Positions 4,875-60,442 of a DNA stretch of 64,000 nucleotides are shown here, piece by piece. The notes beneath the pieces were generated by a model that was given only the letters and a program-made list of their open reading frames with translations, searched no databases and was not told the DNA's origin. Position 1 is the first letter of the stretch, and every line of letters begins with the position of its first letter. The DNA is from Escherichia coli (GTDB taxonomy: Bacteria > Pseudomonadota > Gammaproteobacteria > Enterobacterales > Enterobacteriaceae). Position numbers and translations under genes: made by a program. The stretch is taken from NCBI RefSeq assembly GCF_046105845.1, contig NZ_CP151004.1; one strand, given 5' to 3'.

Positions 4875-5482
4875 TTAACACGTAAAATCGGTAACGGCTG
4901 GAAATCATTCAATACTCGCACTATCGGAAGTTCACCAGCCAACCGCAGCACGTTCTTGCATACGACGTGTCTGCGGTTTTTCAACCATTCAGATACAGCA
5001 CTCTCATAACATTCATTCTTCCGCATTAAAGTATATATGACCATATCACCTTAATATTTTTCTTCTTCAGATAAAAATTGTTATCTATGTATACTTTTAA
5101 ACCGAATCCGTGTAGAGTCTCTACCTAAGTTAGTTCGCAGCTCCCCCTTCAGTTTGCGCCATTAACCTCCTGACTTTTGCCGCTATCTGTAAGCATTCCT
5201 GTATACCTGAAACTACAGGGTTCATCTACGAACTTTAAGAACACCCAGGATAAAAATTGTCAACTATATTATATATAACACCATACTAATTCGAGGCTAT
5301 ATGAACAGCATACTGATAATCACTTCACTACTTATCATATTCAGCATTTTTGGTCATGCTCTAATAAAATTAGGGATTGGCATATCCAATAACCCGGACA
5401 AAACAGATGTATAAGTCAACATATCCTGAATCAGACATACAATATTGCAATGAAAACCAATAATATTTTAAGGAATATCTTC

Positions 5483-6095: not shown

Positions 6096-6686
6096 ATGTC
6101 TCGAATTTTTGCTTACTGTCGGATATCAACGCTGGATCAGACCACCGAAAATCAACGCCGGGAAATCGAAAGTGCAGGTTTTAAAATCAAACCTCAGCAA
6201 ATAATCGAAGAACACATTAGCGGCTCAGCAGCAACCAGTGAGCGTCCTGGTTTTAACCGGTTGCTTGCTCGCCTGAAATGTGGTGATCAATTGATTGTGA
6301 CAAAACTGGATCGCCTTGGTTGTAATGCAATGGATATCAGGAAAACAGTGGAACAACTGACCGAAACAGGTATCAGAGTGCATTGCTTAGCATTGGGGGG
6401 CATTGACCTGACCAGTCCAACAGGAAAAATGATGATGCAAGTAATTTCAGCAGTCGCTGAATTTGAACGAGACCTTTTACTTGAACGCACTCATTCCGGG
6501 ATAGTAAGAGCCCGGGGCGCAGGGAAACGTTTTGGTCGACCACCTGTGTTAAATGAAGAACAGAAACAGGTGGTATTCGAACGGATTAAGTCAGGTGTAA
6601 GTATAAGTGCCATTGCCCGGGAATTCAAAACCTCGCGGCAAACCATTTTAAGAGCCAAAGCAAAACTTCAGACACCTGACATATAA
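6096..6686 (+). CDS. serine recombinase of the PinR/PinQ type
   Basis: 196 aa, [15 protein letters not shown] catalytic-serine N-terminus and C-terminal HTH; adjacent to tfa/stf as in Rac/Qin. Confidence 0.8.
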
Positions 6687-6783: not shown

Positions 6784-7359
6784 CTACGGCAGTGCTGGCC
6801 ATTCAATATCCTGTGCAGTTGACGTATCAACACGGTTCAGCAATACCCGATACTTTTTCCATGCTTCCAGCAACGAGATTTCTTCCTCCGTTGCAATTTC
6901 CAGATCTGCAGCATCCTGAAGCGGCGCAATATGCTCACTGGCTACCTGCATCAGGCTGTTTTTTGTTTCTTCCGCCTCCCGGATCCGGAACAGTTTTTCT
7001 GCTTCTGCATCTTTCACCCAGGCTGTGCCGTTCCACTTCTGAAACTCCCCTTCCGGCGATAACCAGGTAACATTTTCCGGTAACGGACCGAGTTCAGAAA
7101 TAAATAACGCGTCCCCTGACGCTACGTCATAAACCGTTTTACCCCGATGGTCTTCAACGAGATGCCACGATGCCTCATCACTGTTGAAAACAGCCACGAA
7201 GCCTGCCGGAATATCTGGCGGTGCAATATCGGTACTGTTTGCTGGCAGACCTGTATGAGGCGGAATATATGCGTCACCTTCACCAATAAATTCATTAGTT
7301 CCGGCCAGCAGATTATAAATTTTTATGGTCCGTGGTTGTTCACTCATTCTGAATGCCAT
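6784..7359 (-). CDS. tail fibre assembly protein
   Basis: 191 aa; Tfa-like sequence ending DIEWPALP; directly downstream of stf. Confidence 0.85.
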
Positions 7360-10300
7360 TATGCAAGCCTCACAATGTAGTTAAATGCGATGTTTTTGAC
7401 GGTGTTTTCCGCGTTACCAGCAGCGTTAACGGTGATAGTGTGTCCATGTGAGCCAATCGCAACAGAGTGCGTATGAGCACCAATACCGACAGTATGTGCG
7501 TGAGCACCTGCAGATGCGGCTGTGCCGCTAACACTATGAGTGTGCGCTCCTGCAGCACTTGTATTCACACTGGCCGCAGACACTACCTTATGTACTGACC
7601 CATTTTGTGACCACTGGCTGACTGCTGATGCGCCTGTGACACTATGAGTATGGTTTCCGGCACTTGCGGCTGTACCGCTCACACTGTGCGTATGCGCCCC
7701 GGTGTTATTCGTGGATTTAGTGCCGTAATCAAACGACGATGTGGTTTTCGTCCCCAAATCCGTACTGGATGCGCTGGCGCTGTGGGTGTGCGATTTAATG
7801 CCGTCCTGTTCCTGAGACAATACGGCCCGACCACTGGCAGGTTTGCCCTTAATCGTCCAGCTACGCATATCAGGGATCACGCCTGACGGATAAGCGGCTG
7901 CAAGTTTCGGGTATGCAGATTTGTCAAAAGTCTGCCCCTGCATCAGGGCATAACCAGACGGAACGGTATCTGATGGCCACGGGATTGGTGCGCCGACTGG
8001 GTAGCTTTCTGGTGGAAGATTTTTCGAGGTATAAACTTCTGCCCAGTCTTCCTCAAAACCATAGCCATCTCTTGAGGAACGGTAGAACAGACCTCCATTT
8101 CTGTAATGCGCCTTCATCTGCAGGGTCCGGCAACTTCCGACTCCGGTATAGAAGTTAACCAGAATATAGCTGTCGCCAGAGCGGGTGACATTGTAAGCGC
8201 CTGATTCGGCATTCCATGGAACGCCCCCATCCGCATCGGCATACGTATCCGTTGCTCTTCTGGCAAAAGCAGCCACATGCGCGGCGGTTAAAGTAATATC
8301 TTTGGAACCATCAAACTCAACACCAGAAACCCGTCTTGGCGTTTGCAGCTTTGTTGCTGTTAATGCATTACCGTTCAGACTTGCGGACAGTTTGGTTCCA
8401 ATAACCAGCTCGCCGGTTGCGTTATCAATAGCAAACGGTCTTAATGTATTCCAGCCACCATAAACATCACCTTGATTGGTAAGCAGCAGGTAAGTTTTAG
8501 CGCCATCATTACGCCATAATGCACCATACTCCCCACCTATCATTCGAATCTGATTACCACCACGCGCTACAATTTCGTCTGTGGCAAAAAGTTTTTTGCA
8601 CGACAAGTTATCGTTAACGATTAACGAATGAGACTCATAAAAACCACGCCCACTCTTAAAATCAAGGATAACGTCCGCCGCGATACATTCAGTCGCTGGA
8701 TTTGTTGCCCCAAACTTATAGGTCGTATCATTAACAACGAGATCAGCACCAGGTGCGGATATTGACAGGCCATCTTCGATAAACGCAAAAACAGGGAAAG
8801 CAGCGCCATCAACATAGAACACAGAGCGCAAATCATCGCCCTTATTACTCATCATTATTGAGTGGATGGCTCGTTCATTGTTTTGATATTGCCAGAACAT
8901 TCCATAAGCATAACGCCCCCTGTCAGTCCAGCCACCAGGCATAACAAATCCGTTAAACTCGCAGTTATTCATCGGATCGCCTGCGGTTCGCGTTGCCGTG
9001 GTGATAATGACCCTTGATGCCAGTTCGCTTACTGAGCCAGCAGAACGCATAACAACAACAGGGTAATATTTTCCAGATGTTGCACCTGCAGGAGCGTTAA
9101 CCCGCACATAACGCATACCACGCTTATCAGCAAAGTCTGTTTTACTGACCGCGTTAATGTTGTTCAGGAAGCGTCCCTTATCGGGTATATCAGCGCCGTT
9201 CTGGTCTTTCTGCAGACGTTTCTCTGCATTGTCATAGGCTGATTTTACTGCCTTTGGCGTTGCCGCCAGCGTTTCAGACGTACTGTTGGTCGCACTGCTG
9301 AGCTGTACTATCCCCTTTTTCGTCGTGCTCGCATCCTCAAGCGCCACGGCGGATGCAATATCCTCTGCCCGTTTTGCCGCTGTCTCAGCGCGCGTTGCTG
9401 CAGATTCCGCCGTACTTTTGCTCTGAGCTGCTGCCGTCGCACTACCAGCAGCCTCTGTCGCCTTCGTGGATGCCGTCGTGGCGCTGCCCTTCGCTGCTGA
9501 CGCCTGTCTGGTCGCCTCATCTTTTGAAGCAGACGCCGATGAGGCCGATGACGCCGCCGAACTGGCGGACGATGCCGCTGCCGTTTTTGAGGATTCTGCA
9601 CGGGTTTCCGACGCTTTCGCGTTCGTTTCGGATGTCTTCGCTGCGGAAGCTGACCTCGCTGCTGCCGTGGCCTGCTCAGTGGCTTCGCCAGCCTTCGTTG
9701 TGGCTGTTGAAGCGGATGATGCGGCGCTTTCTGCCGATTTTCCGGCGGCGGTGGCACTGACTGAGGCCTGCCCGGCACTTGTTGACGCGGCACTGGCAGA
9801 CGACGCAGCCGCTGTTTTTGAGCCTGCCGCAGCTGAGGCGCTCTGTCCCGCTGCCGTCTCAGAAGACCTGGCGTTCGTCTCGGACGTTTTTGCCGCCTTC
9901 GCGGAATTTCCTGCCGCCGTTGCCGAGGAAGCTGCGCTGCTGGCGCTCGAGGCTGCGTTCGTTTCTGATGATTTTGCCGCCTCTTTTGAAGCCGACGCAT
10001 CCCGTGCTGAAGTGGCTGCTTCTGACGCTTTCGTGGTCGCGGTGGATGCAGAAGTGGCTGCTGATTGTTGTGACGCTGCCGCATTCGTTTCTGACGTTTT
10101 CGCCGCACCGGCACTGGTAGCCGCCGCGCTTTTTGAGGACTCTGCAGCGGCAGCACTTTTTGATGCTTCAGTGGCCTTTGCTGATGCCGTTCCTGCGCTG
10201 GAAGACGCTGACTGAGCCGACGACGCGGCCTGTCCGGCTGACGTGCTGGCTGCGCGTGCTGAGCCTGCAGCATCAGTCGCATGGGTTGCCGCCTCACGGG

Positions 10301-10712
10301 CTGATGTGCTGGCATTGCTGGCTGACTTCTTCGCGGCTGCTGTGTTCTGTGCCACCGCGGACGCGTTACGCGCCACCTCTTCCACCATCAGTTCAAAACG
10401 TCGCAGTGCCTCCGGACGGGTATCATCCTCCGTCATGGCACCGAGAAAATCATTCAGCGTACCGGGTTGAGAATCTTCATACACGGTGATGGTCCCGGCA
10501 TGTGACGGCGGGAATCCCTCCACCAACAGAATAACGCTGTACTGACCGTACTCAACGTCCATACTGTAACGCCCGGCTTCATCCGGATTTTCTGAGGCCA
10601 GCGTGTTCACCACCACAGTGGTACTGTTACGTTTTGCTTTCAGCTGGATTGTGCAGTTCTGTACCGGTTTTCCTGTGCCGTCTTTCAGTACACCTGAAAT
10701 CTTTACTGCCAT
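7359..10712 (-). CDS. side tail fibre protein, StfR-like
   Basis: [28 protein letters not shown]-terminus, long Ala/Ser/Thr-rich central region, C-terminus HTHS repeats and [11 protein letters not shown]. Confidence 0.85.
9300..10370 (-). repeat. low-complexity Ala/Ser/Thr-rich coding repeats inside stf
   Basis: Reiterated [14 protein letters not shown] peptide units in the translation; produces artefactual long ORFs in the other frames. Confidence 0.7.
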
Positions 10713-10776
10713 ATTCACCCCACAAAAAAGCCCGCCTGAACCGGCGGGCTGTCATAACACTGTGTTACCTGGCTAA

Positions 10777-22107: not shown

Positions 22108-24200
22108 CCTCCGGAAGTCAGCCAGGGGTTAACATCGTCAGTTACTGTTTTCTTCCGTTTTTGTTTTTTAACAGGCGTGGATACCGGTTCCGGTGTGGGT
22201 GACGGTTCGGTACTGTCCGGGACACACTCCAGCCAGGTTTCCCGGCTCGCCCACTCCGGTGCATCCGGCCAGCGGATCTTTTCGTATCCATGCAGAATGA
22301 CCAGAGCCTCGGCATACACCATCAGGTCAAAAGCTTCGTTGGCACCGCGACCCGGCTTACTCCATTTCCCGTCACTGCTCCGCTCTTCATACGTCAGTTC
22401 GTCGTAAAACCAGCTCCCCAGCCAGTCAGGGAAATGCACATAGCCGGGACCTGGCGAGTCACGCCATAACGCGTTATTCACCCGGTCTTTCAGGGCATCC
22501 GTCTGAAGAAGCCAGAGCGGTACATCACCTGCGGCCTGCGCCCGTCGGCCCGTTCGTCCGGTGTTATCAGGGAATGTACGGGTGATCAGTTTTGCGCGCC
22601 GGATGCTGTCGCCCTTAAACAGGTAAATACGTTTACCAAGGCCATCACGACGGCAACGACGCCAGAATTTATAGGCATTATCAGTGACTCCGTCTTCACC
22701 GCCGGAGTCCACCGCCATTGCCATCAGTCGCATTTGTTGAGAAGGATCGGAGGCCAGCGGCCAGCTTTTATGAAAAACATCCGTCAGCAGGACATCCCAG
22801 TCTTCCGGATAGCTGGCCGGATCAATTCGCTGGCTCTCCCCGTCGCTGTCACCGCGCAATGACTGCGTGATGTTGTAACGATCAATAATCCAGCGTTCGC
22901 CACGGCTGCCATAGCCCGTTACCTGAACCACAAAACGGCGATGACGTCCCGCCTGCACATCAACTGTCGCCACCAGGAAATTAACGCCATCCGGCACACT
23001 GCGGGAAGGAACTGGCTCTGCCCGCTGCTCAAGCAGTTCACTTTTTCGTTGCTCCATGCTGGCACGGGGAAGATAAGGTAATCCCCAGTCGGTATTGATA
23101 ACCGTCTTGAGTGTTTCTTCACTTCCGGTTGTCTCGTATTCCTGTTCTGCAGCAAGCAGTTTGTAAACGAGTTGCGAGAGTGTCTGGTAAGCAGCTGCCG
23201 GACCCTCCATCCAGAATGACGCAATACGTGAGCGTCGGGGATCACCATAACGACTGCCATCCGCATTGATGGATTCACCATCCCGCAACCAGACCCCACG
23301 TCCGTTCAGCTCACGTTTTTGTTCAGGCATAATCCGTCCTGAACAGGAAGGACACTGAATATAAGCCGCCTCACTTGCCAGCACGGGATCGGCAATATCA
23401 CGGAAACCAGCAACCACATCGCCGCAGGGCTGAAAATACTCACCACAGTGTGGACAGGGCCAGTACCAGCGACGGCGATCGCCACGGTTATAGAGCGACA
23501 GTATCCCCGTGGTTGGTGGAGCCTCATGCGGTGAAGTCCGTCGCCATTTCACATCCTTCACATCCCTGCCGGGGGAACTCTCCACCAGCGTCATACCACT
23601 GGACATAAATGTGGTGGTACGTTTTGAGGCAAGAGAGAAGGCATCCCCCTCGCCATCAATATCTTCCGGAAAACGGTCATAATCCGTCAGCGCCACGCAT
23701 TTATAATCTGATGAGGACATGATATTGACTGACGGCCAGCCGATTTTCAGGTAGTTGCCAGCAAGGAATGTTCTGTCATAAACGTTGTTGTCATTTTTGT
23801 TCGGACTCAGGCGACTGACCACTTCCGGGCTGACGCGAAACGTTCTGGCAAGTCGTTTTTTGGAGTGTTCGCGGGCTTTTTCCTCCGTCATCTGAATGAT
23901 CAGCATATCAGCAGGATCGCAAATCACGTTGTAAATCACCCAGCCGTCAATCAGGCCGATAGTCTTGCCAGTTCGTGCCGGGCCAACAAATATCACTGCG
24001 TCGTATTCACGCGAGGCCAGGCAGTTCATCGGCTCAATAACATACGGTGCCACCAGCGGATCCCACGGGACTGAGTTCCCGGCCCCCATGGGCACCCGCA
24101 TATACTGAGCAACGGCATCAGCAACCCGCATTCGTCTCGGTGCGCGAAGGATATAACCTGAATCGGTTCGTGCTGCCTTTGCGGTTTCCTGATTCAGCAT
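22098..24200 (-). CDS. terminase large subunit (lambda A family)
   Basis: 700 aa; Walker A-like VGPARTGKT near the N-terminus; gene order after the small subunit. Confidence 0.85.
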   Translation of the reverse strand: MLNQETAKAARTDSGYILRAPRRMRVADAVAQYMRVPMGAGNSVPWDPLVAPYVIEPMNCLASREYDAVIFVGPARTGKTIGLIDGWVIYNVICDPADMLIIQMTEEKAREHSKKRLARTFRVSPEVVSRLSPNKNDNNVYDRTFLAGNYLKIGWPSVNIMSSSDYKCVALTDYDRFPEDIDGEGDAFSLASKRTTTFMSSGMTLVESSPGRDVKDVKWRRTSPHEAPPTTGILSLYNRGDRRRWYWPCPHCGEYFQPCGDVVAGFRDIADPVLASEAAYIQCPSCSGRIMPEQKRELNGRGVWLRDGESINADGSRYGDPRRSRIASFWMEGPAAAYQTLSQLVYKLLAAEQEYETTGSEETLKTVINTDWGLPYLPRASMEQRKSELLEQRAEPVPSRSVPDGVNFLVATVDVQAGRHRRFVVQVTGYGSRGERWIIDRYNITQSLRGDSDGESQRIDPASYPEDWDVLLTDVFHKSWPLASDPSQQMRLMAMAVDSGGEDGVTDNAYKFWRRCRRDGLGKRIYLFKGDSIRRAKLITRTFPDNTGRTGRRAQAAGDVPLWLLQTDALKDRVNNALWRDSPGPGYVHFPDWLGSWFYDELTYEERSSDGKWSKPGRGANEAFDLMVYAEALVILHGYEKIRWPDAPEWASRETWLECVPDSTEPSPTPEPVSTPVKKQKRKKTVTDDVNPWLTSGGWL

Positions 24201-24691
24201 TACTCCTCCTGCTGTAATTCCTCCTCATCATCCGCACCTGCTTCGGTCACCCGCAGGGCTATCTGATCGCGCAGATCATCAATAATGGACTGAACACGGC
24301 TCACAGCGGCAGGCTGCAGGCCGCAGTCACGTTCCAGAATATCCGGTAATGTCTCCAGCACCTGCACGACCGCTTTTGCCCAGATGGCAAACTCCCGTCT
24401 GACATCACTGGCCGGAATGAGTTGTGCCGTTTCCTGTTCGAACTTAAGACGCTCACGTTCAGACTGATACCAGGCTTTGCGTTCATGTGGATCCATTTCG
24501 CCCTCAGCAACCGGCGGTGGTAACCCCATAAATTCAGTCAGAATATCGGTCAACCGGTATAGCTTGAGTTTGTCATGTCCACCAGCGGGACGAATGTTTT
24601 TCAGTCTTGCCACGACAGTCTGGCGGTGCAGACCAGATAAAGCCGCCAGTTGATTAATATTCAGCACCAGGTTTTTCAACTCATGATCCAT
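24200..24691 (-). CDS. terminase small subunit (lambda Nu1-like)
   Basis: 163 aa; N-terminal wHTH-like MDHELKNLVLNINQLAALSGLHRQTV; immediately upstream of the large subunit. Confidence 0.7.
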   Translation of the reverse strand: MDHELKNLVLNINQLAALSGLHRQTVVARLKNIRPAGGHDKLKLYRLTDILTEFMGLPPPVAEGEMDPHERKAWYQSERERLKFEQETAQLIPASDVRREFAIWAKAVVQVLETLPDILERDCGLQPAAVSRVQSIIDDLRDQIALRVTEAGADDEEELQQEE

Positions 24692-25451: not shown

Positions 25452-25775
25452 TTTGTCGCTCCATGCGTTTGCTCTTCACTTGCGGCTAAAAATATAACGT
25501 CAAATCACTCAGCATGAAAGAGTGAAAGTTTCAGCGCGTTTCCCTTACATAATCTGTCGTTTGTATTCTCTTCAGGCATACCGGAAAGACTAGGTATTGT
25601 CACACAACCAATACCATCGACAATCGAGATTTATATCTATTCGGTAATGTTTAAATATAACAAAACCCCGTAAAAACGAGGTTTATGGGTATTTTGTTGT
25701 CTGAAATTTATGCCGTTTAAAATCATGACGTTAGAAGCACTGTTTTTTAACGATGGCGACAAAATGGCGGCAGCG

Positions 25776-31749: not shown

Positions 31750-32922
31750 TTACGCGCTGACCTGGCTGGCGAAATTCACCAGGTACTGATCGGTGATGCG
31801 CTGACGCAGCATCAGGTTTTCAAGTGGCGGCACTGGCGTGTAGTCGTAGTCGATGGTGAGTTTTCCGGCTTTCAGCGTGTCTTTGTCGTTCACCGACTCA
31901 TCCAGCCAGCAATCACCACCAATGAGATAGCCCTGACAGACCAGGCTGCGCATTTTGGCGCGGATACCTTCGATAATGTCGCGGGCCAGCGACGGGTTAA
32001 GCGGTTTATCCACCGCCCACATGTGTGCTTCTGCCATCGTGTCCATCAGCACCTGCGCCGTGCGGGTGTAGTTTTCGAAGGCAAAGAGCGGGTCATCACT
32101 CAGGCAGCGGGAACCCCAGAAGCGGAAACCGTCTTTACGCACAAGCGTGGTGACGTCGTTCTGGTTCAGCAGACCTGCATCGGTTGCCGGGTCCTGCAGA
32201 TCCCAGAACACATCTGCAGAAATTCCGGTGACACCGTTCACGCCCACGTTGGACAGGCTTTTGTGCCATCCGGTCTGCTCGTCAATTTTGGCGCGCAGAC
32301 CAAGCGCACGGGCGGTGGCATATGCCGTTGCTTCGGCATTCAGCACCGTGTCCCAGCCAGTAAAGTCAGGCCAGATCAGCATCCCTTCGCGCTGGCTGAA
32401 GTTTTCGCGGTAAGTGATCGCCTCCTGCACTGTCTTGCAGCCATACGCTGACAGGTAAGCAAATCCACGCAGGCTTTGCGCCACGCTCAGCAACTCAGTC
32501 GCAACGGCTTTGTTATCGTGACCTGGCACGCCGAGAATGCGCGGTTTAACGCCGAGCTGTGTCTGGGCAGATAACAGGGCTTTCATGCCTGTTTTTTTAC
32601 CTTCAGCAGTCACTGCGCCGATGATATTGGTCGTGGTTTCTTCTTCCGTTTCACCCTGCGGCACACGCACAACAACGGTCACGGGTTTTGCCTGGTCAGA
32701 GATGGCATCCAGCGAACGGGCCAACGTGCCGGACTCACCCGCTTTACCGCTGGCAGTCAGCACATCAGTGATCAGCACGGGTTTATTAAGAGGAAACATT
32801 TTTGCATCGGCATCATCGCCCGTGCAGACCATGCCCACGATGGCGGTGCTCACCGTGGTAATGGATCGGGTACCTTCGTTGACTTCAACAACGCGCACCC
32901 CGTGGTGGTAATCCTGAGCCAT
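31750..32922 (-). CDS. FI: tail sheath protein (P2 FI-like)
   Basis: 390 aa, [13 protein letters not shown] start. Confidence 0.85.
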
Positions 32923-33064: not shown

Positions 33065-33631
33065 TCAGGGGGATTCATTACTCTTATTTGCCGGAAATTT
33101 TCTATAAATTGTGGAAACACCCACATCAAAAATCAGTGCAATACGCTGTCTTGATTCTCCGGCCTCGAGTAAGCGTCCAATCTGTGCCCACTGTTCGGTG
33201 GTCAACTTAGGACGGCGTCCACCTACTCTGCCTTTGTCGCGAGCTGCAGCAATCCCCGCCCTGGTACGTTCAACTATCAGTTCGCGTTCCATTTCAGCCA
33301 GGGCACCCATGACATGAAAAAAGAAACGGCCCATTGGGGTACTGGTATCAATACTGTCAGTCAGGCTTCGGAAATTCACGCCACGCTGGCGCAACTCTTC
33401 TATCAGCGTAACAAGATGCCGCATACTGCGTCCCAACCTGTCCAGCTTCCAGACAACCAGCGTGTCTCCTGCCGATAGTGTCCTGAGTAGTTTTTTCAGC
33501 CCCGGTCTGTCGGACTTAGTGCCACTGATTTTATCCTCAAAAATCCGCTCACATCCCGCGCAGTTCAGTGCATTACGTTGCAAATCGGTGTTCTGGTCAT
33601 TTGTTGACACGCGTACATAGCCAATAAGCAT
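33065..33631 (-). CDS. Pin/Gin/Hin-family DNA invertase
   Basis: MLIGYVRVSTNDQNTDLQRNAL N-terminus at 33631; close to remembered e14 Pin. Confidence 0.9.
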   Translation of the reverse strand: MLIGYVRVSTNDQNTDLQRNALNCAGCERIFEDKISGTKSDRPGLKKLLRTLSAGDTLVVWKLDRLGRSMRHLVTLIEELRQRGVNFRSLTDSIDTSTPMGRFFFHVMGALAEMERELIVERTRAGIAAARDKGRVGGRRPKLTTEQWAQIGRLLEAGESRQRIALIFDVGVSTIYRKFPANKSNESP

Positions 33632-33685
33632 GATCAATCCCCTGAATAAAAACCGTGGATGATGCCAGTTAGCCATTATCTCTGC

Positions 33686-34060
33686 ATTTTCATAAACGTT
33701 GGTTTGGGAGAAGCGGCGAAAAGGGATGTGGGCACAGGAGAAAATCAGATACCGGATATGTCAGCCTGGAAAAGAAATCCGAGTTCTAATCGCTGGAGAA
33801 AATTGCCTGATGGAACCATCATTCAAATGGGAATATCAGCATCAGGACCATTAGGCTCACCTGTAAATATCACCCTGCCGATATCTTTCAGCAATACCAA
33901 TTATTGTGTTGTTGCATCGTACGATAATGCACGGTCAGGTGTGTCAACAATGGTTAGTTTTGCAGCATTGCCTGTTTCACCATCGCAATTTTCCCTGATG
34001 TCATCTGTGACTGAGCAAGGAATAAATCCTTTTGCTTACTGGATTGCTTTTGGAGATTGA
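33686..34060 (+). CDS. alternative tail-fibre C-terminal variable segment, promoterless (expressed only after inversion)
   Basis: Frame open through the crossover site (…VGLGEAAK…); no independent start within the segment. Confidence 0.65.
   Translation: MFINVGLGEAAKRDVGTGENQIPDMSAWKRNPSSNRWRKLPDGTIIQMGISASGPLGSPVNITLPISFSNTNYCVVASYDNARSGVSTMVSFAALPVSPSQFSLMSSVTEQGINPFAYWIAFGD
33687..33712. promoter_or_regulatory. 26-bp inversion crossover site (gix/pix-like), invertase-proximal
   Basis: ttttcataaacgttggtttgggagaa; reverse complement shares 14/14 leading bases with the site at 35536. Confidence 0.8.
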
Positions 34061-34063
34061 TAA

Positions 34064-34483
34064 ATGGACAGATACTTCTATTCACAAAAAGAAAATGGTT
34101 TTTTTACCGATTTAAATAAAGCACCTTCAGATGCTGTTGAGATAACCACGGATGAATGGCTGTTACTACTGGATGGTCAGGATAATGGCATGAAAATAGT
34201 CAGCAATCAGGAGGGATATCCGGTTTTGATAGAGCAACCACCTTTATCAAAAGAAAACCTTATTGCATTGGTGGAGTTGAAAAAAAGAAAACTTATTAAT
34301 GAAGCCAACGAGCACATGAACAGCAGACAATGGCCAGGTAAAGCGGCTATTGGTCGTCTGAAAGGTGAGGAACTGGCGCAATATAATTTATGGCTGGATT
34401 ATCTGGACGCACTGGAACTGGTTGATCCCTCCAGTGCTCCAGATATTGAATGGCCTACGCCTCCGGCAGTTCAGGCCAGATGA
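34064..34483 (+). CDS. alternative tail fibre assembly protein
   Basis: 139 aa ending DIEWPTPPAVQAR, Tfa-family C-terminus. Confidence 0.75.
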   Translation: MDRYFYSQKENGFFTDLNKAPSDAVEITTDEWLLLLDGQDNGMKIVSNQEGYPVLIEQPPLSKENLIALVELKKRKLINEANEHMNSRQWPGKAAIGRLKGEELAQYNLWLDYLDALELVDPSSAPDIEWPTPPAVQAR

Positions 34484-35057
34484 CATCCGGTGCGGTGCTG
34501 GTATCTGTTGCCGTCACCGCGTCAATGTAATCCAGCGCAGCGTTAAGTCGGGCGGTTTCTGCCTGCGTCAGATTCCGTCCGGCCTGTAATTTCAGTTGAA
34601 TCAGACTGATAGAAGCCATTGCTGTATCAATCAGCGACTGGCGCTGTGCTTCTGCTGCATCTACTACGGCGCTATGCTGTGCCTCGGTATCCGTCACCCA
34701 TTTCTCACCATCCCATTTATCGTATGGCGTTAACGGGGCGATAGTGGTTGTATTATCAGGGTAATCACCCGGTGCTGTGATTTCTTTTGATTCTCCTGTT
34801 TCGGTGCTAAAGACAATTTCACCGCGATGGTCTGGTACATATTCCCATGAGTTAAAATCTGCAGAGCGGCAGATTGCATAACCAGCTTTGTAGGTGCCTG
34901 GAGCATCTAAACAGGAATATGCCGGAATGCCGACACCAACAGCAAGATATTCAGTTGAAGCTGAAATATACTCCCGACTCATGACGTCAAAGTTATAAAC
35001 AGTAATTTCTCCTGCCATAGTGGCAATTAATTCACTGTTTAATTCTGCGTTATTCAT
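34455..35057 (-). CDS. tail fibre assembly protein (current orientation)
   Basis: 200 aa ending VIWPELPEA; directly downstream of H. Confidence 0.8.
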   Translation of the reverse strand: MNNAELNSELIATMAGEITVYNFDVMSREYISASTEYLAVGVGIPAYSCLDAPGTYKAGYAICRSADFNSWEYVPDHRGEIVFSTETGESKEITAPGDYPDNTTTIAPLTPYDKWDGEKWVTDTEAQHSAVVDAAEAQRQSLIDTAMASISLIQLKLQAGRNLTQAETARLNAALDYIDAVTATDTSTAPDVIWPELPEA

Positions 35058-36598
35058 TATGCAGCCCTCACAATATAGTTAAAAGCGACATTTCGTGGGC
35101 GTGTTTCATTCGCACCTGCAGGTTTAGTCGTTGCCGCAACAACACCACCCTCTGTAATAGCCGGGTTAGGAATTGGGTAATTATCGAAGTCAATGGCCGG
35201 AGACAGGGGCGTGATTTGTTTTAAAATCGTGGTGCCTGTAAAACTTTCCAGAGTCTGGTCGTTAGTTCGTGAAGTCCAGATTCCCCAATAGTGGTTATGA
35301 CTGACAATCGCACCGTCCTGAAGCGTTAATAATCCCCTTCCGTTATCCACTCCACGTCCGTCATCCCAGCCACGAATAAACTCACCGCGTAAATCAGGCA
35401 ATTTATTTGTCGGGTAAGCCTTTGCCAGTTCCGGGTATTCTTCAGCAGAAAAAGCCGCACCATTGCATTTCAGCCAGCCTGTCGGCGGAGTGGCGGAAGG
35501 CCACGGAACAGGCACACCAACAGGTAATGCAGAGCCTTCTCCCAAACCAAGGTATGCGAGAAGACCAGCTACATCCTTTCCACTCAAATTGGTAAGCGTA
35601 TTGTCCAGCGGTTGTTTACCTGCCAGCGCATTAAGCATTGTCGTGGCAAAGTTCGGATCATTCCCCAGTGCCGCCGCCAGTTCGTTCAGTGTATCCAATG
35701 CCGCGGGTGCAGAACCCACCATTGCTGCAATCGCTGATTTTACAAAAGCTGTAGTGGCAATCTGTGTATTGTTGACCGACTGTGCCGCAGTAGGTGCTGT
35801 TGGCGTTCCGGTGAGTGCCGGACTCGACAGTGGCGCTTTCAGTGCCAGCGCATTGTTAATGGTGGTACTGAATTTCGGATCATTGTTAATGGCTACGGCT
35901 ATTTCTTTCAGCGTGTCCAGCGTGGCTGGCGCACCATTAATAAGAGCCGTCAGTGCCGCCTGAACAAATGCGGTGGTCGCAAGCTGCGTGGTATTATTCC
36001 CCGCCGCTGGCGTTGGCGCTTTGGGGGTTCCGGTAAACGTTGGACTTTCTTTGGGTGCATACTGTGAATGCGGGTCCGGCGCGGCAAGATGTTTTGCCAT
36101 CAGGTCATCCACGTACACCTTCAGCTCCAGTGCCTTGTCATCCACATACTTGCGGGTTGCCAGCACTACTGCAGGGTCGATTTTCAGGGTGATATTGTCC
36201 GTGCTGCTGGTAATCAGCACCATGCGCACGGTCTGGGTGCGCCCGCTGCCTTCAGCCAGTTGCGGCTTATAGCTTTCCGGGCAGTTGCCCACGGCAATCA
36301 ATGCACCTGATTCATCAAACAGGCCCACTTCACGTATCCACCAACCGCCCTCGTTTTCAGGGATCACCTGTTCAGCAATAATCTGGCTGCTGTTCTGCGG
36401 GTCGATATAGAGCATATTCAGCGCAGCCCGGCGTTTCTCATTTACCAGTGCCGTCTGCTTTGCGTCCGGCGTTGGCAATGTTCCGCCGCCATCGCCGACC
36501 GCCATATGGGTAATTTTTAAAGGCACACCGAGCGCGGCGGCGCTGGCAAGTTTCGCCGCGCCAATATCCGTCAGCAGGGTATAAAATTTTGTGCTCAT
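35057..36598 (-). CDS. H: tail fibre protein (P2 gpH-like), current-orientation fusion
   Basis: MSTKFYTLLTDIGAAKLA start; crossover site encodes LLAYLGLGEG about two thirds into the protein; C-terminus NVAFNYIVRAA. Confidence 0.85.
   Translation of the reverse strand: MSTKFYTLLTDIGAAKLASAAALGVPLKITHMAVGDGGGTLPTPDAKQTALVNEKRRAALNMLYIDPQNSSQIIAEQVIPENEGGWWIREVGLFDESGALIAVGNCPESYKPQLAEGSGRTQTVRMVLITSSTDNITLKIDPAVVLATRKYVDDKALELKVYVDDLMAKHLAAPDPHSQYAPKESPTFTGTPKAPTPAAGNNTTQLATTAFVQAALTALINGAPATLDTLKEIAVAINNDPKFSTTINNALALKAPLSSPALTGTPTAPTAAQSVNNTQIATTAFVKSAIAAMVGSAPAALDTLNELAAALGNDPNFATTMLNALAGKQPLDNTLTNLSGKDVAGLLAYLGLGEGSALPVGVPVPWPSATPPTGWLKCNGAAFSAEEYPELAKAYPTNKLPDLRGEFIRGWDDGRGVDNGRGLLTLQDGAIVSHNHYWGIWTSRTNDQTLESFTGTTILKQITPLSPAIDFDNYPIPNPAITEGGVVAATTKPAGANETRPRNVAFNYIVRAA
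35536..35561. promoter_or_regulatory. 26-bp inversion crossover site inside the tail-fibre gene
   Basis: ttctcccaaaccaaggtatgcgagaa, inverted copy of the 33687 site. Confidence 0.8.
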
Positions 36599-47862: not shown

Positions 47863-49287
47863 TTACTTACGTGTTTCAACTATATTCAGCCCCTTATAAA
47901 GGCTTTGATGGATATATACAGAACCAGTATTTGGCAACATTAAATCAGCATCTTCACATCGGAATCTAGCCGTACCGGAATTGCCCAACCGGACACCAAT
48001 CACAGAAGCATTAAATAGAGTTTTCATCAATTCACGAGAAGTATAGCGCTTACAAAGGTCAGGCGCTTTCTCTTCAATCTTACTGATGAATTCTTCTGTA
48101 GAATTATATCTATGCTGCGTCTGACGTAAAGATTCCAATAGCTCACCAAAATGAGGGTAGAGCCTTTTGTATTCTTGTTTTAAGTCCTCAACTTTCCAAG
48201 CGCTGTACCGTTCTTCAGCTATTCTAATTATATCCTTTTTTATTTCAGAAGCATTAGCATCACAGCGTTTTTGGCATTCTTGCAAAAACTGAATAACTTC
48301 TCTTGGGCGCAAAAATGTGCGCTTCACCAAATAGTTAAACGGTGAAATACTCCCTCTCATTTCACCTTCCTCAAAAATATCATCTATAGTTATATTTTCC
48401 GGCAATCTGGCGTTCACCATATCTTTCAACAACTCTGGTGTCCAGATTATTTCTTCTTCAATTGCTCGGTGTTTATCTTTATCATCAAATTCCAGCCCTT
48501 GATAAATATCAGAGCGTAAAAATGTTACAATATGAATACCTTTGGCTCTAGTATCAGAATAACTATCATTAATATCTTTTGTTGCCTTCAACAAGCCAAT
48601 CAAAAGGCTTTTGGCATCATCCGATCCATCCCAAGAATCATCTAATCGATCAGTGGCAATTAGCACCCCAATATCTGTACAAATTTCTTTAAGCTCGTCA
48701 AGGATGATTTTTATTATTTGAGGTGTCAATGGTGCTTGCGAAGCATCCTTATTAAACCCCACAGCATATCCGAAAGCCTCAAAATTGAATGAACTTAATC
48801 CCGAGAGTAACTTCCTTGCAGTTCCCAAAGTAGTTGGCGATATACCACCATAGTTATCAGAAACAAATTTTTTAATTCTAGCAAGGGCCTCCCGAGGTCT
48901 TTTCTCTGAAAATTGCCTACCTGACCTAATAATTTCTGCCGCAGCCTCAACAGCTATTGCAAATTTCCAAGCATTACAATGTGCCTGTTCGGGTAACAAC
49001 CCTTGCTCTTGATATTGTTTTAATGCTCCCCAAGCATACTGGTCTGGGGTCATGACATTTACGATAACGTCCTGCCCATATTTTGCTCTTACCAACCTTG
49101 GGAGTTGGGTAAAGATGGATGATTTCCCAGCCCCCTTTCTTCCAAGAAAATGGGCACTATAGAAACTCAGAGCTTGCTCAACTTGAGGAGTATTGATGAA
49201 ATAATCAGCCAACCTTCTATCAGCTTCAGCATCGACAGTACCAAAGTTGAGTCCCTTAACTGTAAGGCCTAACGCATCTAACCGCAC
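47863..49287 (-). CDS. P-loop NTPase of unknown family; accessory cargo between portal gene and cos
   Basis: 474 aa, GTG start with AAGGA RBS; Walker A GRKGAGKSS; possible Walker B LIATDRLDD; AT-rich by eye. Confidence 0.6.
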   Translation of the reverse strand: MRLDALGLTVKGLNFGTVDAEADRRLADYFINTPQVEQALSFYSAHFLGRKGAGKSSIFTQLPRLVRAKYGQDVIVNVMTPDQYAWGALKQYQEQGLLPEQAHCNAWKFAIAVEAAAEIIRSGRQFSEKRPREALARIKKFVSDNYGGISPTTLGTARKLLSGLSSFNFEAFGYAVGFNKDASQAPLTPQIIKIILDELKEICTDIGVLIATDRLDDSWDGSDDAKSLLIGLLKATKDINDSYSDTRAKGIHIVTFLRSDIYQGLEFDDKDKHRAIEEEIIWTPELLKDMVNARLPENITIDDIFEEGEMRGSISPFNYLVKRTFLRPREVIQFLQECQKRCDANASEIKKDIIRIAEERYSAWKVEDLKQEYKRLYPHFGELLESLRQTQHRYNSTEEFISKIEEKAPDLCKRYTSRELMKTLFNASVIGVRLGNSGTARFRCEDADLMLPNTGSVYIHQSLYKGLNIVETRK

Positions 49288-57649: not shown

Positions 57650-59167
57650 GTGAAATGTGGTGATTGTAATTGGAACTGGGATGAAGAAACTACCTTTATA
57701 TTAGACGACGAAGAGGAAATTCTTTCCAAAGACAAACTTAATCGGAGACACTATGCAGAATATCTATATTTTTATCTTAAGGAAAAGGGGCAAAAGAACA
57801 ACACGGTAATCAACCTTAATGCAGAATGGGGAGCTGGTAAAAGTTTTTTCATAAAGAGATTTTATAACTCAATAAAAGATGCACACCCATGCGTTTACAT
57901 TGATGCCTGGAAGCAAGACTTTTCTGATGATGCATTTTTAACCCTTTTTTCTTCTTTGTCACAACAATTGCAAACATATGCAGGAAAACTTGATGCTCGA
58001 TTGATACAAAGCGGCCATGCTATCGGACGCTTTACAAAAGGTGTTCTACCTGAAATCATATCTGGCCTAATCAAGACTTATGCAGGAGTAGATAACGTAG
58101 GTGATATAGCCAAAGAAGCCTCATTAATAATGCTGAAGGAACACCAGGAAAAACTGAAGAGCATTAAGGTATTAAAAAAAGAACTAACGTTATGGTCTAG
58201 GTTGGCATATGAAAATAGTTTTTCATGTCCTATATTTATCTTTATAGATGAATTAGACAGATGCAGGCCAGATTATGCAATTTCTCTTTTAGAGATTGTT
58301 AAACATATATTCGATATTAAAAATTTTGTCTTTATTATTGCTACTGACACAGATCAATTACAACATTCAATCAAGAATGTTTACGGTAATGATTTTTCCG
58401 CAAATGACTATTTAGGCCGTTTTTTTCATAGAAGATTTACTTTAAAACAACCTGAACTTAAAGATTTAATTAATGGTGTTATTGGTGATTATATTGGTAC
58501 CGATTTTGAAAATATCACATCAAAAACATACCCACTAACAGCAACATTAGAAGACTTTTCAATAAATATTTCCAACGTATTTGAAGCATTTGGGTTAAAT
58601 CTAAGAGACTCAATCCGAAATACTGAAAGGTTAATAGACATTCTTAAATCTGATTTAGTCAAAAAGAAAGTAGATTATATTTTTATAATTTCGCTAATGA
58701 TTATATATGATAAGGATCGTCAAATTATAGATGGACTAATTGGTCGAAGAAATGCAGCACAACGTTTCACTGATTCGATAAAGCAAAGCTCCAATTTAAA
58801 AGGTGTTTCTCAAGCCATCCTTGAATTAAATCTTGATACAAATCAGCAAAGAATAGGTGTCAATTATATCTATAGAACGGCGAGCAGTAGATTATTCATC
58901 TCACAGATCGAGCCCAAAATAAATTTAACATTAATAAATTACTTAGATGTTGCATTGTATTTTATTAATAATATAAACATGCTTAAATCAAGTATAAAAA
59001 ACAATGGGCAAAATTCACTAATGATTATATCTCAACAAGGCCCTATTGATGGTGATACAGCTATAAAGTATTTGCAAGGAGCCCTTATAGAGAATGGTCT
59101 GAATACATCTTTTTATGCCTTACATAATTACATTGAATTAATTGAACTGGCCACATCATTTGATTAA
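57650..59167 (+). CDS. KAP-family P-loop NTPase
   Basis: 505 aa, GTG start after GGAG; Walker A NAEWGAGKS; Walker B IFIFIDELDRCRPDY; AT-rich by eye. Confidence 0.7.
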   Translation: MKCGDCNWNWDEETTFILDDEEEILSKDKLNRRHYAEYLYFYLKEKGQKNNTVINLNAEWGAGKSFFIKRFYNSIKDAHPCVYIDAWKQDFSDDAFLTLFSSLSQQLQTYAGKLDARLIQSGHAIGRFTKGVLPEIISGLIKTYAGVDNVGDIAKEASLIMLKEHQEKLKSIKVLKKELTLWSRLAYENSFSCPIFIFIDELDRCRPDYAISLLEIVKHIFDIKNFVFIIATDTDQLQHSIKNVYGNDFSANDYLGRFFHRRFTLKQPELKDLINGVIGDYIGTDFENITSKTYPLTATLEDFSINISNVFEAFGLNLRDSIRNTERLIDILKSDLVKKKVDYIFIISLMIIYDKDRQIIDGLIGRRNAAQRFTDSIKQSSNLKGVSQAILELNLDTNQQRIGVNYIYRTASSRLFISQIEPKINLTLINYLDVALYFINNINMLKSSIKNNGQNSLMIISQQGPIDGDTAIKYLQGALIENGLNTSFYALHNYIELIELATSFD

Positions 59168-60306: not shown

Positions 60307-60442
60307 TAACCACCACTGACCACCAACCCAACTTATTGTTTTTACTCTAAGTTATTGTTTTCATTAACCCGTTTACATAAATGGGTAATTTGTATTGTTG
60401 AATAGCATCTGATGAGAAATTGATGCTAATATTATAAACATA

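What the first reader, a model, noticed from the sequence alone, without database searches (positions are those of the whole stretch)
33065..35561. Invertible tail-fibre host-range switch with Pin-type invertase; both crossover sites located
The 26-bp sites at 33687-33712 and 35536-35561 are inverted copies. The second lies inside the tail-fibre gene where it encodes LGLGEG, and the first opens an in-frame promoterless alternative C-terminus (…GLGEAAK…) followed by an alternative tfa. Inversion would therefore swap the fibre C-terminus and its chaperone. The invertase sits at the P2 Z/fun position.
Basis: seen in the sequence. Interest (0 to 1): 0.6.

Follow-up and report, generated by a model that had tools for sequence, protein, structure and literature searches.

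The report
Flippable tail-fibre switch in P2-like prophage
This is a textbook DNA-inversion switch (the Gin/Cin/Pin kind) in an E. coli P2-like prophage that swaps the tip of the phage tail fibre and its helper protein; it is real and almost certainly works, but it is already a well-known kind of system.

Summary
They lie in inverted orientation with matching central TT/AA dinucleotides.

Flipping 33699-35550 in silico keeps the fibre gene in frame: 513 aa with a Collar-domain tip becomes 469 aa with a gp53-like tip. Each tip has its own Caudo_TAP chaperone.

The adjacent 188-aa invertase (33065-33631) is intact. It is 82% identical to e14 PinE and 71% to Mu Gin, and it keeps the catalytic Ser9 and all residues that contact Fis and the enhancer.

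Near-identical prophages (about 98%) occur in E. coli genomes in both orientations, 30 against 27. In two strains, 13TMH22 and ATCC 8739, two records differ only by an exact inversion at these sites.

An equivalent P2-like module in EPEC E2348/69 was shown experimentally to flip (Goldberg 2014).

Additional findings:
- The window also encodes PinQ (99% identical to K-12 PinQ), which is reported to flip the same crossover core in trans.
- A short ORF (33659-34060) corresponds to the reported anti-phage protein StfE2.
- The P2-like prophage is nested inside a Qin-like lambdoid prophage.

The parts
33065..33631 (-). Pin-type serine DNA invertase, 188 aa (true start MLIGYVRVST at 33631; the longer ORF to 33676 is an upstream extension)
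   Evidence: phmmer against PDB matches Gin 3uj3 at E 5.6e-93 over residues 1-184. phrog_125 'DNA invertase', E 3e-100. Identity is 82% to PinE, 76% to Cin, 71% to Gin, and 97-98% to the invertases of 13TMH22 and ATCC 8739. Ser9, R7, R42, K46, K47, R50, Q150, R153 and L154 are all conserved.
33542..33613 (.). Probable recombinational (Fis) enhancer inside the 5' end of the invertase gene. Candidate 15-bp G-N13-C cores lie at 33596-33610 and 33547-33561.
   Evidence: This stretch is equivalent to the enhancer annotated at cin nt 19-90 in the P1 record. It is 56/72 identical to that enhancer and 100% identical to the ATCC 8739 prophage, which flips. The two cores span 64 bp, and the proximal core centre is 96.5 bp from the crossover. 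The published values are 65 bp and about 100 bp (PMC3798978). Fis binding itself is inferred.
33687..33712 (.). Left (invertase-proximal) 26-bp crossover site, with central dinucleotide TT at 33699-33700
   Evidence: Identical at 26 of 26 positions to the pin-proximal site of e14. One mismatch to the family consensus.
33699..35550 (.). Invertible segment, 1852 bp between and including the central dinucleotides
   Evidence: In-silico flip. In relatives, exact reverse-complement middles of 1822 and 1831 bp are bounded by the shared half-sites.
33701..34060 (+). Currently unexpressed alternative fibre C-terminus (Sv'), a gp53-like tip
   Evidence: Pfam Gp53-like_C PF21882, E 2.9e-13. In frame with the constant part after the flip, giving a 469-aa fibre.
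34064..34483 (+). Alternative tail-fibre assembly chaperone (tfa'), 139 aa
   Evidence: Pfam Caudo_TAP, E 2e-24. phrog_188, E 3e-51.
34455..35057 (-). Currently expressed tail-fibre assembly chaperone (TfaE-like), 200 aa. Its 3' end overlaps tfa' by 29 bp.
   Evidence: Pfam Caudo_TAP, E 1.5e-32. 86% nt identity to e14 tfaE. Overlap measured.
35057..35550 (-). Currently expressed variable fibre C-terminus (Sv), a Collar-domain tip
   Evidence: Pfam Collar PF07484 at fibre residues 361-408, E 1.2e-14. PDB matches to T4 gp37 2xgf (E 4e-17) and a short tail fibre 9cuy (E 4e-15). 94% nt identity to e14 stfE over 35344-35553.
35537..35562 (.). Right 26-bp crossover site inside the fibre gene, with central dinucleotide AA at 35549-35550. 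It encodes LLAYLGLGE.
35551..36598 (-). Constant N-terminal part of the P2 H-like tail fibre (Sc)
   Evidence: Pfam Phage_tail_fib PF12571 at residues 1-150, E 8e-65. phrog_327.
33659..34060 (+). Short 133-aa ORF that starts at a fixed ATG outside the segment and reads through the left site. It is the analogue of e14 StfE/StfE2 and is currently fused to the gp53-like tip. After a flip it would be 177 aa.
   Evidence: PGAP annotates the same ORF in relatives. The function of the e14 counterpart is reported in PMC12529663. Expression here is untested.
6096..6686 (+). pinQ in the surrounding lambdoid prophage, a possible trans-acting second invertase for this segment
   Evidence: 194/196 identical to K-12 PinQ and 38% identical to the Pin-type invertase. 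PinQ is reported to invert the e14 P segment, whose repeat core is TTGGTTTGGGAGAAGG.

Best explanation
This is a functional two-state DNA-inversion switch of the Gin/Cin/Pin/Hin (Fis- and enhancer-dependent serine invertase) family, built into the tail-fibre operon of an apparently complete P2-like prophage of E. coli.

Proposed mechanism:
1. Dimers of the 188-aa invertase bind the two 26-bp sites.
2. Together with a Fis-bound enhancer inside the 5' end of the invertase gene, about 97 bp from the left site, they form an invertasome.
3. The enzyme cuts at the central TT/AA dinucleotides, rotates one pair of subunits by 180 degrees, and religates. This inverts 1852 bp.

The constant 5' part of the H-like fibre gene lies outside the segment and is driven by the late V-operon promoter. 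It is therefore joined either to the Collar-type tip plus the 200-aa TfaE-like chaperone (the present state, a 513-aa fibre) or to the gp53-like tip plus the 139-aa chaperone (a 469-aa fibre). A lysogen population would thus release two kinds of virion with different receptor specificity.

Shown here: the sites, the reading frames, an intact enzyme, and real inversion at these sites in relatives that are about 98% identical.

Inferred: activity in this particular strain, Fis dependence, and a difference in host range.
For: - Sites: only two consensus matches in 64 kb, chance expectation 0.01. Inverted orientation with matching central dinucleotides. The left site is identical to the e14 pin-proximal site.
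- Enzyme: full-length match to Gin and 82% identity to PinE. The catalytic and Fis/enhancer-contact residues listed in PMC3798978 are all conserved.
- Enhancer geometry: cores span 64 bp, 96.5 bp from the crossover, against the published 65 bp and about 100 bp. The enhancer DNA is identical to that of ATCC 8739.
- Reading frame is kept after the flip. The two tips are unrelated domains, each with its own Caudo_TAP chaperone.
- Natural inversion: at 80% or more coverage, 30 genomes match the window orientation and 27 match the in-silico flipped sequence.
- Same-strain pairs: 13TMH22 chromosome against its 36-kb record, and ATCC 8739 CP033020 against NC_010468. Both pairs have 100% identical flanks and an exactly reverse-complemented middle, with breakpoints inside the shared half-site.
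- Experimental precedent: e14 and EPEC P2-like loci were shown to flip by WGS and PCR (PMC4272514). The EPEC locus has the same module order next to the sheath gene.
Against: - There are no reads or second assembly for this strain, so inversion here is not observed directly.
- The invertase has two substitutions not seen in the flipping relatives, L127I and A132D. Neither is at a catalytic or Fis-contact position, but their effect is untested.
- The right site differs at one position, a consensus-N position, from the relatives.
- The simple scan found no sigma-70-like promoter for the invertase.
- The second candidate Fis core is G+C-rich, and the enhancer overlaps conserved coding sequence. 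Its conservation therefore cannot be separated from protein constraint.
- A host-range difference between the two tips is not shown.
Confidence: 0.9

Rival explanations
1. The switch is a fossil in this strain. The architecture is intact, but the segment is effectively locked in the present orientation because the invertase is not expressed or is weakened by its private substitutions.
For: There are two private substitutions, L127I and A132D, relative to the relatives that flip. No promoter-like site was found upstream of the invertase. Only one orientation is seen in the single sequence available.
Against: All catalytic and Fis-contact residues are conserved. Position 132 varies among active Gin, Cin and Pin, and L127I is conservative. 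The sites and enhancer are identical or nearly identical to those of flipping relatives. Known invertases of this family are weakly expressed anyway. PinQ in the same window could act in trans.
Confidence: 0.07
2. Besides host-range switching, or instead of it, the module serves the lysogen as an inversion-controlled anti-phage decoy. The short ORF 33659-34060, now fused to the gp53-like tip, would be made in the lysogen and block adsorption of other phages, as reported for e14 StfE2. PinQ would act as the controlling recombinase.
For: The ORF shares the leader and the gp53-like domain with StfE2: 38% identity over 100 aa, E 5e-12. PinQ is present at 99% identity. The crossover core is the same as the one PinQ is reported to invert. 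The in-frame ATG is present in all relatives examined.
Against: No promoter or good ribosome-binding site is evident. The conserved ATGCCA overlaps what may be the extended -10 element of the invertase promoter on the other strand. The short leader ORF could arise by chance. The K-12 evidence for StfE2 rests largely on overexpression and docking. Here the prophage looks complete, so the classical virion function is sufficient to explain the module.
Confidence: 0.15
3. The inverted repeat is only a by-product of two homologous tail-fibre genes facing each other (a shared GLGE-coding motif) and is not a recombination site.
For: The inner half-site is coding sequence shared by both cassettes. A second inverted repeat, 34393-34410 / 34519-34536, is exactly such a by-product of the conserved tfa C-termini.
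Against: The outer half-sites, which are not homologous coding sequence, also fit the recombinase consensus. The left site is 26/26 identical to the e14 site. Exact inversions with breakpoints at these sites occur within single strains.
Confidence: 0.01

Closest known systems
e14 P segment / PinE of E. coli K-12 (Plasterk and van de Putte 1985; Goldberg 2014 PMC4272514; Kirigo 2025 PMC12529663)
   Same: The invertase is 82% identical. The invertase-proximal site is identical at 26/26 positions. Both have the same 15-16-nt core (TTGGTTTGGGAGAAG) and an invertible segment of similar size (about 1.8 kb). Both carry the same cassette pair: a Collar-type tip with a 200-aa TfaE (86-94% nt identity) and a gp53-like tip with a short Tfa. 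The two tfa genes overlap by 29 bp in both. Both have a short ORF from an invertase-proximal ATG.
   Different: e14 is a defective lambdoid remnant with a truncated fibre (StfP, 209 aa). Here the constant part is a full P2 H-like fibre in an apparently complete P2-like prophage. The gp53-like cassette is divergent, with no blastn match and 38% aa identity.
P2-like prophage invertible loci of EPEC E2348/69 (Goldberg et al. 2014; NC_011601 2977580-2979467)
   Same: Same module order, Sv-tfa | tfa'-gp53-like Sv' | invertase | FI sheath, at the P2 Z/fun position. The active cassette is 88-94% identical at the nucleotide level. Flipping was verified experimentally, 93 +/- 4% forward.
   Different: The EPEC prophage is truncated, with the fibre N-terminus replaced by an integrase fragment. 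Its invertase is only 144/192 identical. A second EPEC P2-like locus has three sites and four states, whereas this one has only two sites.
Phage Mu G segment / Gin
   Same: Same logic and layout: Sc outside the segment, Sv-U | U'-Sv' inside, and the invertase with its 5' end next to the segment and transcribed away from it. The 26-bp sites have the same consensus. The invertase is 71% identical.
   Different: The Mu segment is 3 kb with 34-41-bp repeats. Its central dinucleotide is TC/GA. Its tips and chaperones are different. The phage backbone is Mu rather than P2-like.
Phage P1 C segment / Cin (and the p15B Min shufflon)
   Same: Invertible Sv/U cassettes, an enhancer inside the invertase gene (annotated at cin nt 19-90), and 76% invertase identity.
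   Different: In P1 the 3' end of cin abuts cixL, so the gene is transcribed towards the segment. p15B has six sites and multiple inversions (own knowledge). This locus has two sites.
Salmonella Hin / H segment, and Fin of the P2-like prophage Fels-2
   Same: Same recombinase family and the same Fis/enhancer mechanism. Fin shows that a P2-like prophage invertase can act in trans on another locus (cited in PMC12529663 and PMC4272514).
   Different: Hin flips a promoter controlling flagellin genes, not a tail-fibre coding cassette.

Membership tests
Gin/Hin-family (Fis/enhancer-dependent) serine DNA invertase system | Small serine recombinase (about 185-195 aa) with an N-terminal catalytic domain carrying the nucleophilic Ser9/10 and a C-terminal helix-turn-helix | tested here: met
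   188 aa. Aligned end to end (residues 1-184) with Gin structures 3uj3 and 4m6f at E about 1e-92. The C-terminus matches the Hin DNA-binding domain 1hcr. Ser9 and R7 are present.
Gin/Hin-family (Fis/enhancer-dependent) serine DNA invertase system | Two 26-bp crossover sites in inverted orientation, each made of two imperfect 12-bp half-sites around a 2-bp core that is identical in both sites | tested here: met
   The sites are 33687-33712 and 35537-35562. Each has one mismatch to TTNTCNNAAACCNNGGTTTNNGANAA. The cores are TT and AA, which are the same once the sites are aligned. There are only two such sites in the window. They were compared with gix, cix and e14 sites extracted from the Mu, P1 and K-12 records.
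Gin/Hin-family (Fis/enhancer-dependent) serine DNA invertase system | A cis-acting recombinational enhancer with two Fis sites, located in the 5' part of the invertase gene about 100 bp from one site | tested here: inconclusive
   The region equivalent to the annotated P1 enhancer is 78% identical to it (56/72) and 100% identical to the ATCC 8739 prophage. Two G-N13-C cores span 64 bp, 96.5 bp from the crossover, against the published 65 bp and about 100 bp. Fis binding cannot be tested here, and the region also encodes conserved protein sequence.
Gin/Hin-family (Fis/enhancer-dependent) serine DNA invertase system | Invertase-specific residues that contact Fis and the enhancer (Hin R43, K47, K/R48, K/R51, Q151, R154, L155) | tested here: met
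   The window enzyme has R42, K46, K47, R50, Q150, R153 and L154, numbered as Hin minus 1. The residue list comes from PMC3798978.
Gin/Hin-family (Fis/enhancer-dependent) serine DNA invertase system | The segment actually inverts | not testable with these tools
   Not testable for this strain, since only one sequence is available. For relatives about 98% and 95% identical it is met. 13TMH22 and ATCC 8739 each have two records that differ by an exact inversion at these sites. Both orientations are about equally common, 30 against 27 genomes.
Invertible tail-fibre host-range cassette (Mu G / P1 C / e14 P type) | One crossover site lies inside the fibre ORF, so a constant N-terminal part is joined in frame to either of two C-termini | tested here: met
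   The in-silico flip gives uninterrupted fibres of 513 aa and 469 aa that share residues 1-353, through ...LAYLGLGE.
Invertible tail-fibre host-range cassette (Mu G / P1 C / e14 P type) | Each alternative tip is followed by its own tail-fibre assembly chaperone, and the two cassettes are arranged tail to tail | tested here: met
   The 200-aa and 139-aa proteins both match Caudo_TAP. They are convergent with a 29-bp overlap. The same tip-chaperone pairing is seen in e14 and EPEC.
Invertible tail-fibre host-range cassette (Mu G / P1 C / e14 P type) | The two orientations give virions with different receptor or host specificity | not testable with these tools
   The tips are unrelated domains, Collar PF07484 and Gp53-like_C PF21882. 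This makes different receptors likely, but the receptors are unknown.
P2-like (Peduoviridae) prophage | Late gene order V-W-J-I-H-G / (Z/fun slot) / FI-FII-E-T-U-D, with integrase and att repeats at the ends | tested here: met
   The ORF map and PGAP names in near-identical relatives match the P2 record. The insert is about 34.7 kb, with an imperfect core repeat and an empty site in strain Ec1119.

The most novel reading that the evidence does not exclude
In this lysogen the switch may have two outputs and two controllers. Besides changing the virion's fibre tip, the orientation would decide which receptor-binding domain is fused to a short ORF that starts at a fixed ATG (33659) beside the invertase. 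In the present orientation this gives a 133-aa gp53-like protein analogous to e14 StfE2, which was reported to block adsorption of T2 and other phages. The segment could also be flipped in trans by PinQ of the lambdoid prophage in which the P2-like prophage is nested. That would extend the PinQ/StfE2 'recombinase-activated defence' from a cryptic remnant to an intact P2-like prophage, and would link two nested prophages functionally.
Probability: 0.12. Interest if true: 0.5.

Novelty: already known. Interest (0 to 1): 0.2.

Why it matters
The finding is a correct and complete annotation of a classical phase-variable host-range switch. It matters in three practical ways.

1. Assemblies of this strain may legitimately differ in the orientation of 33699-35550. 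Automatic annotation will then call two different 'tail fibre' genes plus a spurious short gene.
2. Phage induced from this lysogen should be a mixture of two receptor specificities.
3. The presence of PinQ and of an StfE2-like ORF makes this strain a reasonable place to test whether the recently reported PinQ/StfE2 anti-phage mechanism also works on intact P2-like prophages.

None of this is surprising to a specialist.

Tried and rejected
- Shufflon hypothesis (more than two sites, as in one EPEC P2-like prophage or p15B): rejected. Only two consensus sites exist in the window at up to 3 mismatches.
- Chance or homology-only repeat: rejected.
- NCBIfam gave no family for the fibre or the chaperones, and only sub-threshold recombinase hits for the invertase. 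Pfam and PHROGs were informative instead.
- phmmer against PDB found nothing for the gp53-like tip.
- The sigma-70 scan found no promoter for the invertase, the silent cassette or the short ORF. This is uninformative rather than negative, because the family's promoters are weak.
- An exact k-mer search for att repeats of the P2-like prophage failed because the core is imperfect. This was solved by aligning the empty site of strain Ec1119.
- The source genome is not in the E. coli collection. The best match for this locus is 98%, so a second assembly of the same strain could not be checked.
- Trying to separate enhancer conservation from coding constraint gave 78% identity in the enhancer against 68% in the rest of the gene, relative to cin. 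This is suggestive only.

Full report
OBSERVATION. The region was read directly and scanned for repeats. The top inverted repeat in 31-39 kb has arms at 33687-33713 and 35536-35562 (27 nt, 81% complementary). In proper register the two 26-bp sites are 33687-33712 (TTTTCATAAACG-TT-GGTTTGGGAGAA) and 35537-35562 (TTCTCCCAAACC-AA-GGTATGCGAGAA). The sites match at 21 of 26 positions, with an exact 15-nt core. Each consists of two imperfect 12-bp half-sites around a 2-bp centre, and the centres (TT and AA) are identical once the sites are aligned in the same polarity.

A consensus derived from the gix, cix and e14 sites that I extracted from the Mu, P1 and K-12 records finds exactly these two sites in the whole 64-kb window at up to 3 mismatches. 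The chance expectation is 0.01. The switch therefore has two sites and is not a shufflon.

ANATOMY. The genes on the minus strand follow the P2 order: V, W, J, I, then a 513-aa H-like fibre (35057-36598), a 200-aa chaperone (34455-35057), the invertase, then sheath FI (31750-32922), tube FII, E, T, U and D. PGAP names in near-identical prophages agree.

Between the chaperone and the invertase, on the plus strand, lie a 139-aa chaperone gene (34064-34483) and an open frame that runs from the left site to 34060.

The right site sits in the fibre gene, where it encodes LLAYLGLGE. Flipping 33699-35550 in silico keeps the frame and replaces the last 160 residues (...GLGE-GSALPVG...) by 116 others (...GLGE-AAKRDVG...). 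The fibre changes from 513 aa to 469 aa.

The present tip carries a Collar domain (PF07484). It resembles the T4 gp37/gp12 collar regions and a solved short tail fibre. The alternative tip is a Gp53-like_C domain (PF21882) with no relative detectable by sequence in the PDB. Both chaperones are Caudo_TAP proteins. They converge and overlap by 29 bp, exactly as tfaP and tfaE do in e14.

THE ENZYME. The ORF finder extends the invertase to 33676. Alignment with Gin, Cin and PinE places the start at 33631 (MLIGYVRVST), giving 188 aa. It aligns over residues 1-184 with the Gin crystal structures at E 6e-93. It is 82% identical to PinE, 76% to Cin and 71% to Gin, so 'Pin-type' is a fair description.

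The catalytic Ser9 is conserved. So are the residues that McLean et al. (PMC3798978) identify as uniquely conserved in Fis/enhancer-dependent invertases: Hin R43, K47, K/R48, K/R51, Q151, R154 and L155.

The P1 record annotates the Cin enhancer at nt 19-90 of cin. The equivalent stretch here (33542-33613) is 56/72 identical to it and 100% identical to that of the ATCC 8739 prophage. Two G-N13-C cores span 64 bp, and the proximal one is 96.5 bp from the crossover. This compares with the published 65-bp enhancer about 100 bp from hixL. Fis binding itself is inferred, and because the region also encodes conserved protein, I rate this feature inconclusive.

DOES IT FLIP? I searched 5,426 complete E. 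coli genomes with the locus as found and with the in-silico flipped version. At 80% or more coverage in one collinear place, 30 genomes match the window orientation and 27 match the flipped orientation. The best matches are 97.9-98.0% identical over all 3.8 kb in a single piece.

Two cases involve a single strain.

- 13TMH22 has the window orientation in its chromosome and the flipped one in a 36-kb circular record deposited as a plasmid, which is the same prophage.
- ATCC 8739 has the window orientation in assembly CP033020 and the flipped one in NC_010468 and CP022959.

In both pairs the flanks (3.8 and 4.2 kb) are 100% identical, the middle (1822 and 1831 bp) is an exact reverse complement, and the breakpoints fall within the shared half-site. 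This is direct evidence that these sites recombine in prophages whose invertases are 97-98% identical to the window's.

There is also published experimental evidence. Goldberg et al. 2014 (PMC4272514) showed by deep sequencing and PCR that e14 and two P2-like prophages of EPEC E2348/69 flip within single-colony cultures. Their Table S1 gives the repeat cores AAACCTTGGTTTGGGAGAAGG and TTGTTTGGGAGAAG. I fetched the EPEC locus at 2977580-2979467. It has the same module order next to the sheath gene, 88-94% nucleotide identity in the active cassette, and an invertase 144/192 identical.

WHAT REMAINS INFERRED. Activity in this very strain is not observed. The window's enzyme has two private substitutions, L127I and A132D, and the right site has one private change at a consensus-N position. 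Neither looks damaging. No promoter-like site was found for the invertase, which is usual for this family and not informative. The receptors of the two tips are unknown.

COMPARISON WITH KNOWN SYSTEMS. The closest relative is the e14 P segment. The invertase-proximal site is identical at 26/26 positions. The Collar-tip plus TfaE cassette is 86-94% identical at the DNA level, and the architecture is the same. The differences are the backbone (an intact P2-like prophage with a full-length H-like fibre rather than a lambdoid remnant) and a divergent gp53-like cassette.

Mu G/Gin and P1 C/Cin work the same way but have other tips. In P1 the invertase gene is oriented differently relative to the segment. 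All testable defining features of the Gin-family invertible tail-fibre switch are met. The system is therefore a member of an already known kind, and invertases are already annotated at this position in phage records such as Escherichia phage 500465-1 and Cartapus.

EXTRA LAYER. A 2025 paper (Kirigo et al., PMC12529663) reports three things. PinQ and PinR, only 38% identical to PinE, invert the e14 P segment in trans (repeat TTGGTTTGGGAGAAGG). The short ORF that starts next to pinE and reads through the site becomes, after inversion, the 125-aa protein 'StfE2' with a gp53-like domain. StfE2 blocks adsorption of T2 and some other phages.

I reproduced the 125-aa StfE2 by flipping e14 in silico. 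The window has the analogous ORF (33659-34060, 133 aa, leader MMPVSHYLCIFINVGLGE). It is currently fused to the gp53-like tip and is 38% identical to StfE2 over 100 residues. After a flip it would be 177 aa.

The window also carries pinQ itself (6096-6686), 194/196 identical to K-12 PinQ. Trans-action is further supported by the EPEC 'Mu' locus, which flips (60% forward) although its adjacent invertase is a 93-nt remnant.

Two consequences follow. Second, a second output of the switch, a decoy protein in the lysogen, cannot be excluded. I give it low probability. No promoter is evident. The conserved ATGCCA may instead reflect the invertase promoter on the other strand. The K-12 evidence for StfE2 relies mainly on overexpression and docking.

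CONTEXT. The host flank (prfC, osmY, yjjU, yjjV) is 99% identical to E. coli. The P2-like prophage (about 25698-60380, 34.7 kb) is inserted inside a Qin-like lambdoid prophage. Strain Ec1119 has the same lambdoid prophage with an empty site, and the insert is flanked by an imperfect core, ATGGGTA(A/T)TTTGT.

VERDICT. The system is an already known kind of Gin/Cin/Pin-family invertible tail-fibre host-range switch in a P2-like prophage, almost certainly active. Interest is low (0.2). The only mildly novel possibility is PinQ cross-control and an StfE2-like decoy in an intact prophage.

Noticed in passing
window 25685-25697 and 60381-60393 (junctions); insert about 25698-60380: The P2-like prophage (about 34.7 kb) is nested inside a Qin-like lambdoid prophage, between its small terminase gene (24200-24691) and the gnsB/ynfN/cspI/rzpQ/rrrQ module (60.4-64 kb). 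E. coli Ec1119 carries the same lambdoid prophage with an empty site. The insert is flanked by an imperfect core, ATGGGTA(A/T)TTTGT.
   Followed up: yes
window 6096-6686 (+): This is a second serine recombinase, PinQ, 194/196 identical to K-12 PinQ and 38% identical to the Pin-type invertase. It lies beside a tfa gene (6784-7359) and a 1119-aa Stf-like fibre (7359-10718), and no Gin-family crossover site is nearby. PinQ was recently reported to invert the e14 P segment in trans.
   Followed up: partly
window 33659-34060 (+): A short ORF from a fixed ATG outside the invertible segment reads through the left crossover site. It gives 133 aa now and 177 aa after a flip. PGAP annotates it as a separate gene in relatives. 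It corresponds to e14 StfE/StfE2. The ATGCCA start is also conserved in Mu, but it overlaps a possible extended -10 element of the invertase promoter.
   Followed up: partly
window 47863-49287 (-) and 57650-59167 (+): The P2-like prophage carries a Sll1717-family P-loop ATPase (E 2.5e-84, above the curated cut-off). Next to the integrase it carries a KAP/QatA-like P-loop NTPase. These are probably anti-phage cargo in the usual P2 variable slots.
   Followed up: no
L011 (NC_011601 2746500-2754500), locus coordinates 4881-5053: The EPEC 'Mu' invertible locus was measured at 60% forward by Goldberg et al. Beside it there is only a 93-nt invertase remnant followed by disrupted eut genes. Its inversion must therefore be catalysed in trans by another prophage's invertase.
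   Followed up: partly
L001 / L002 (E. coli 13TMH22, NZ_CP019256 and NZ_CP019257): The 36-kb record deposited as plasmid p13TMH22-1 is the same P2-like prophage as in the chromosome of that assembly, including the same IS1203 insertion. It differs only in the orientation of the segment. It is either an excised circular phage genome or an assembly duplicate caused by the mixed orientation.
   Followed up: partly
window 34393-34410 and 34519-34536: This is a second inverted repeat (18 nt, 83%) inside the segment. It is a by-product of the conserved C-terminal coding regions of the two convergent tfa genes, and e14 has the same repeat. It is not a crossover site.
   Followed up: yes
window 33713-34483: The currently silent cassette (gp53-like tip plus 139-aa tfa) is more A+T-rich (GC 0.42-0.43) than the active cassette (0.48-0.50), the constant fibre part (0.545) and the prophage as a whole (0.506). 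This suggests a separate origin for the cassette.
   Followed up: no
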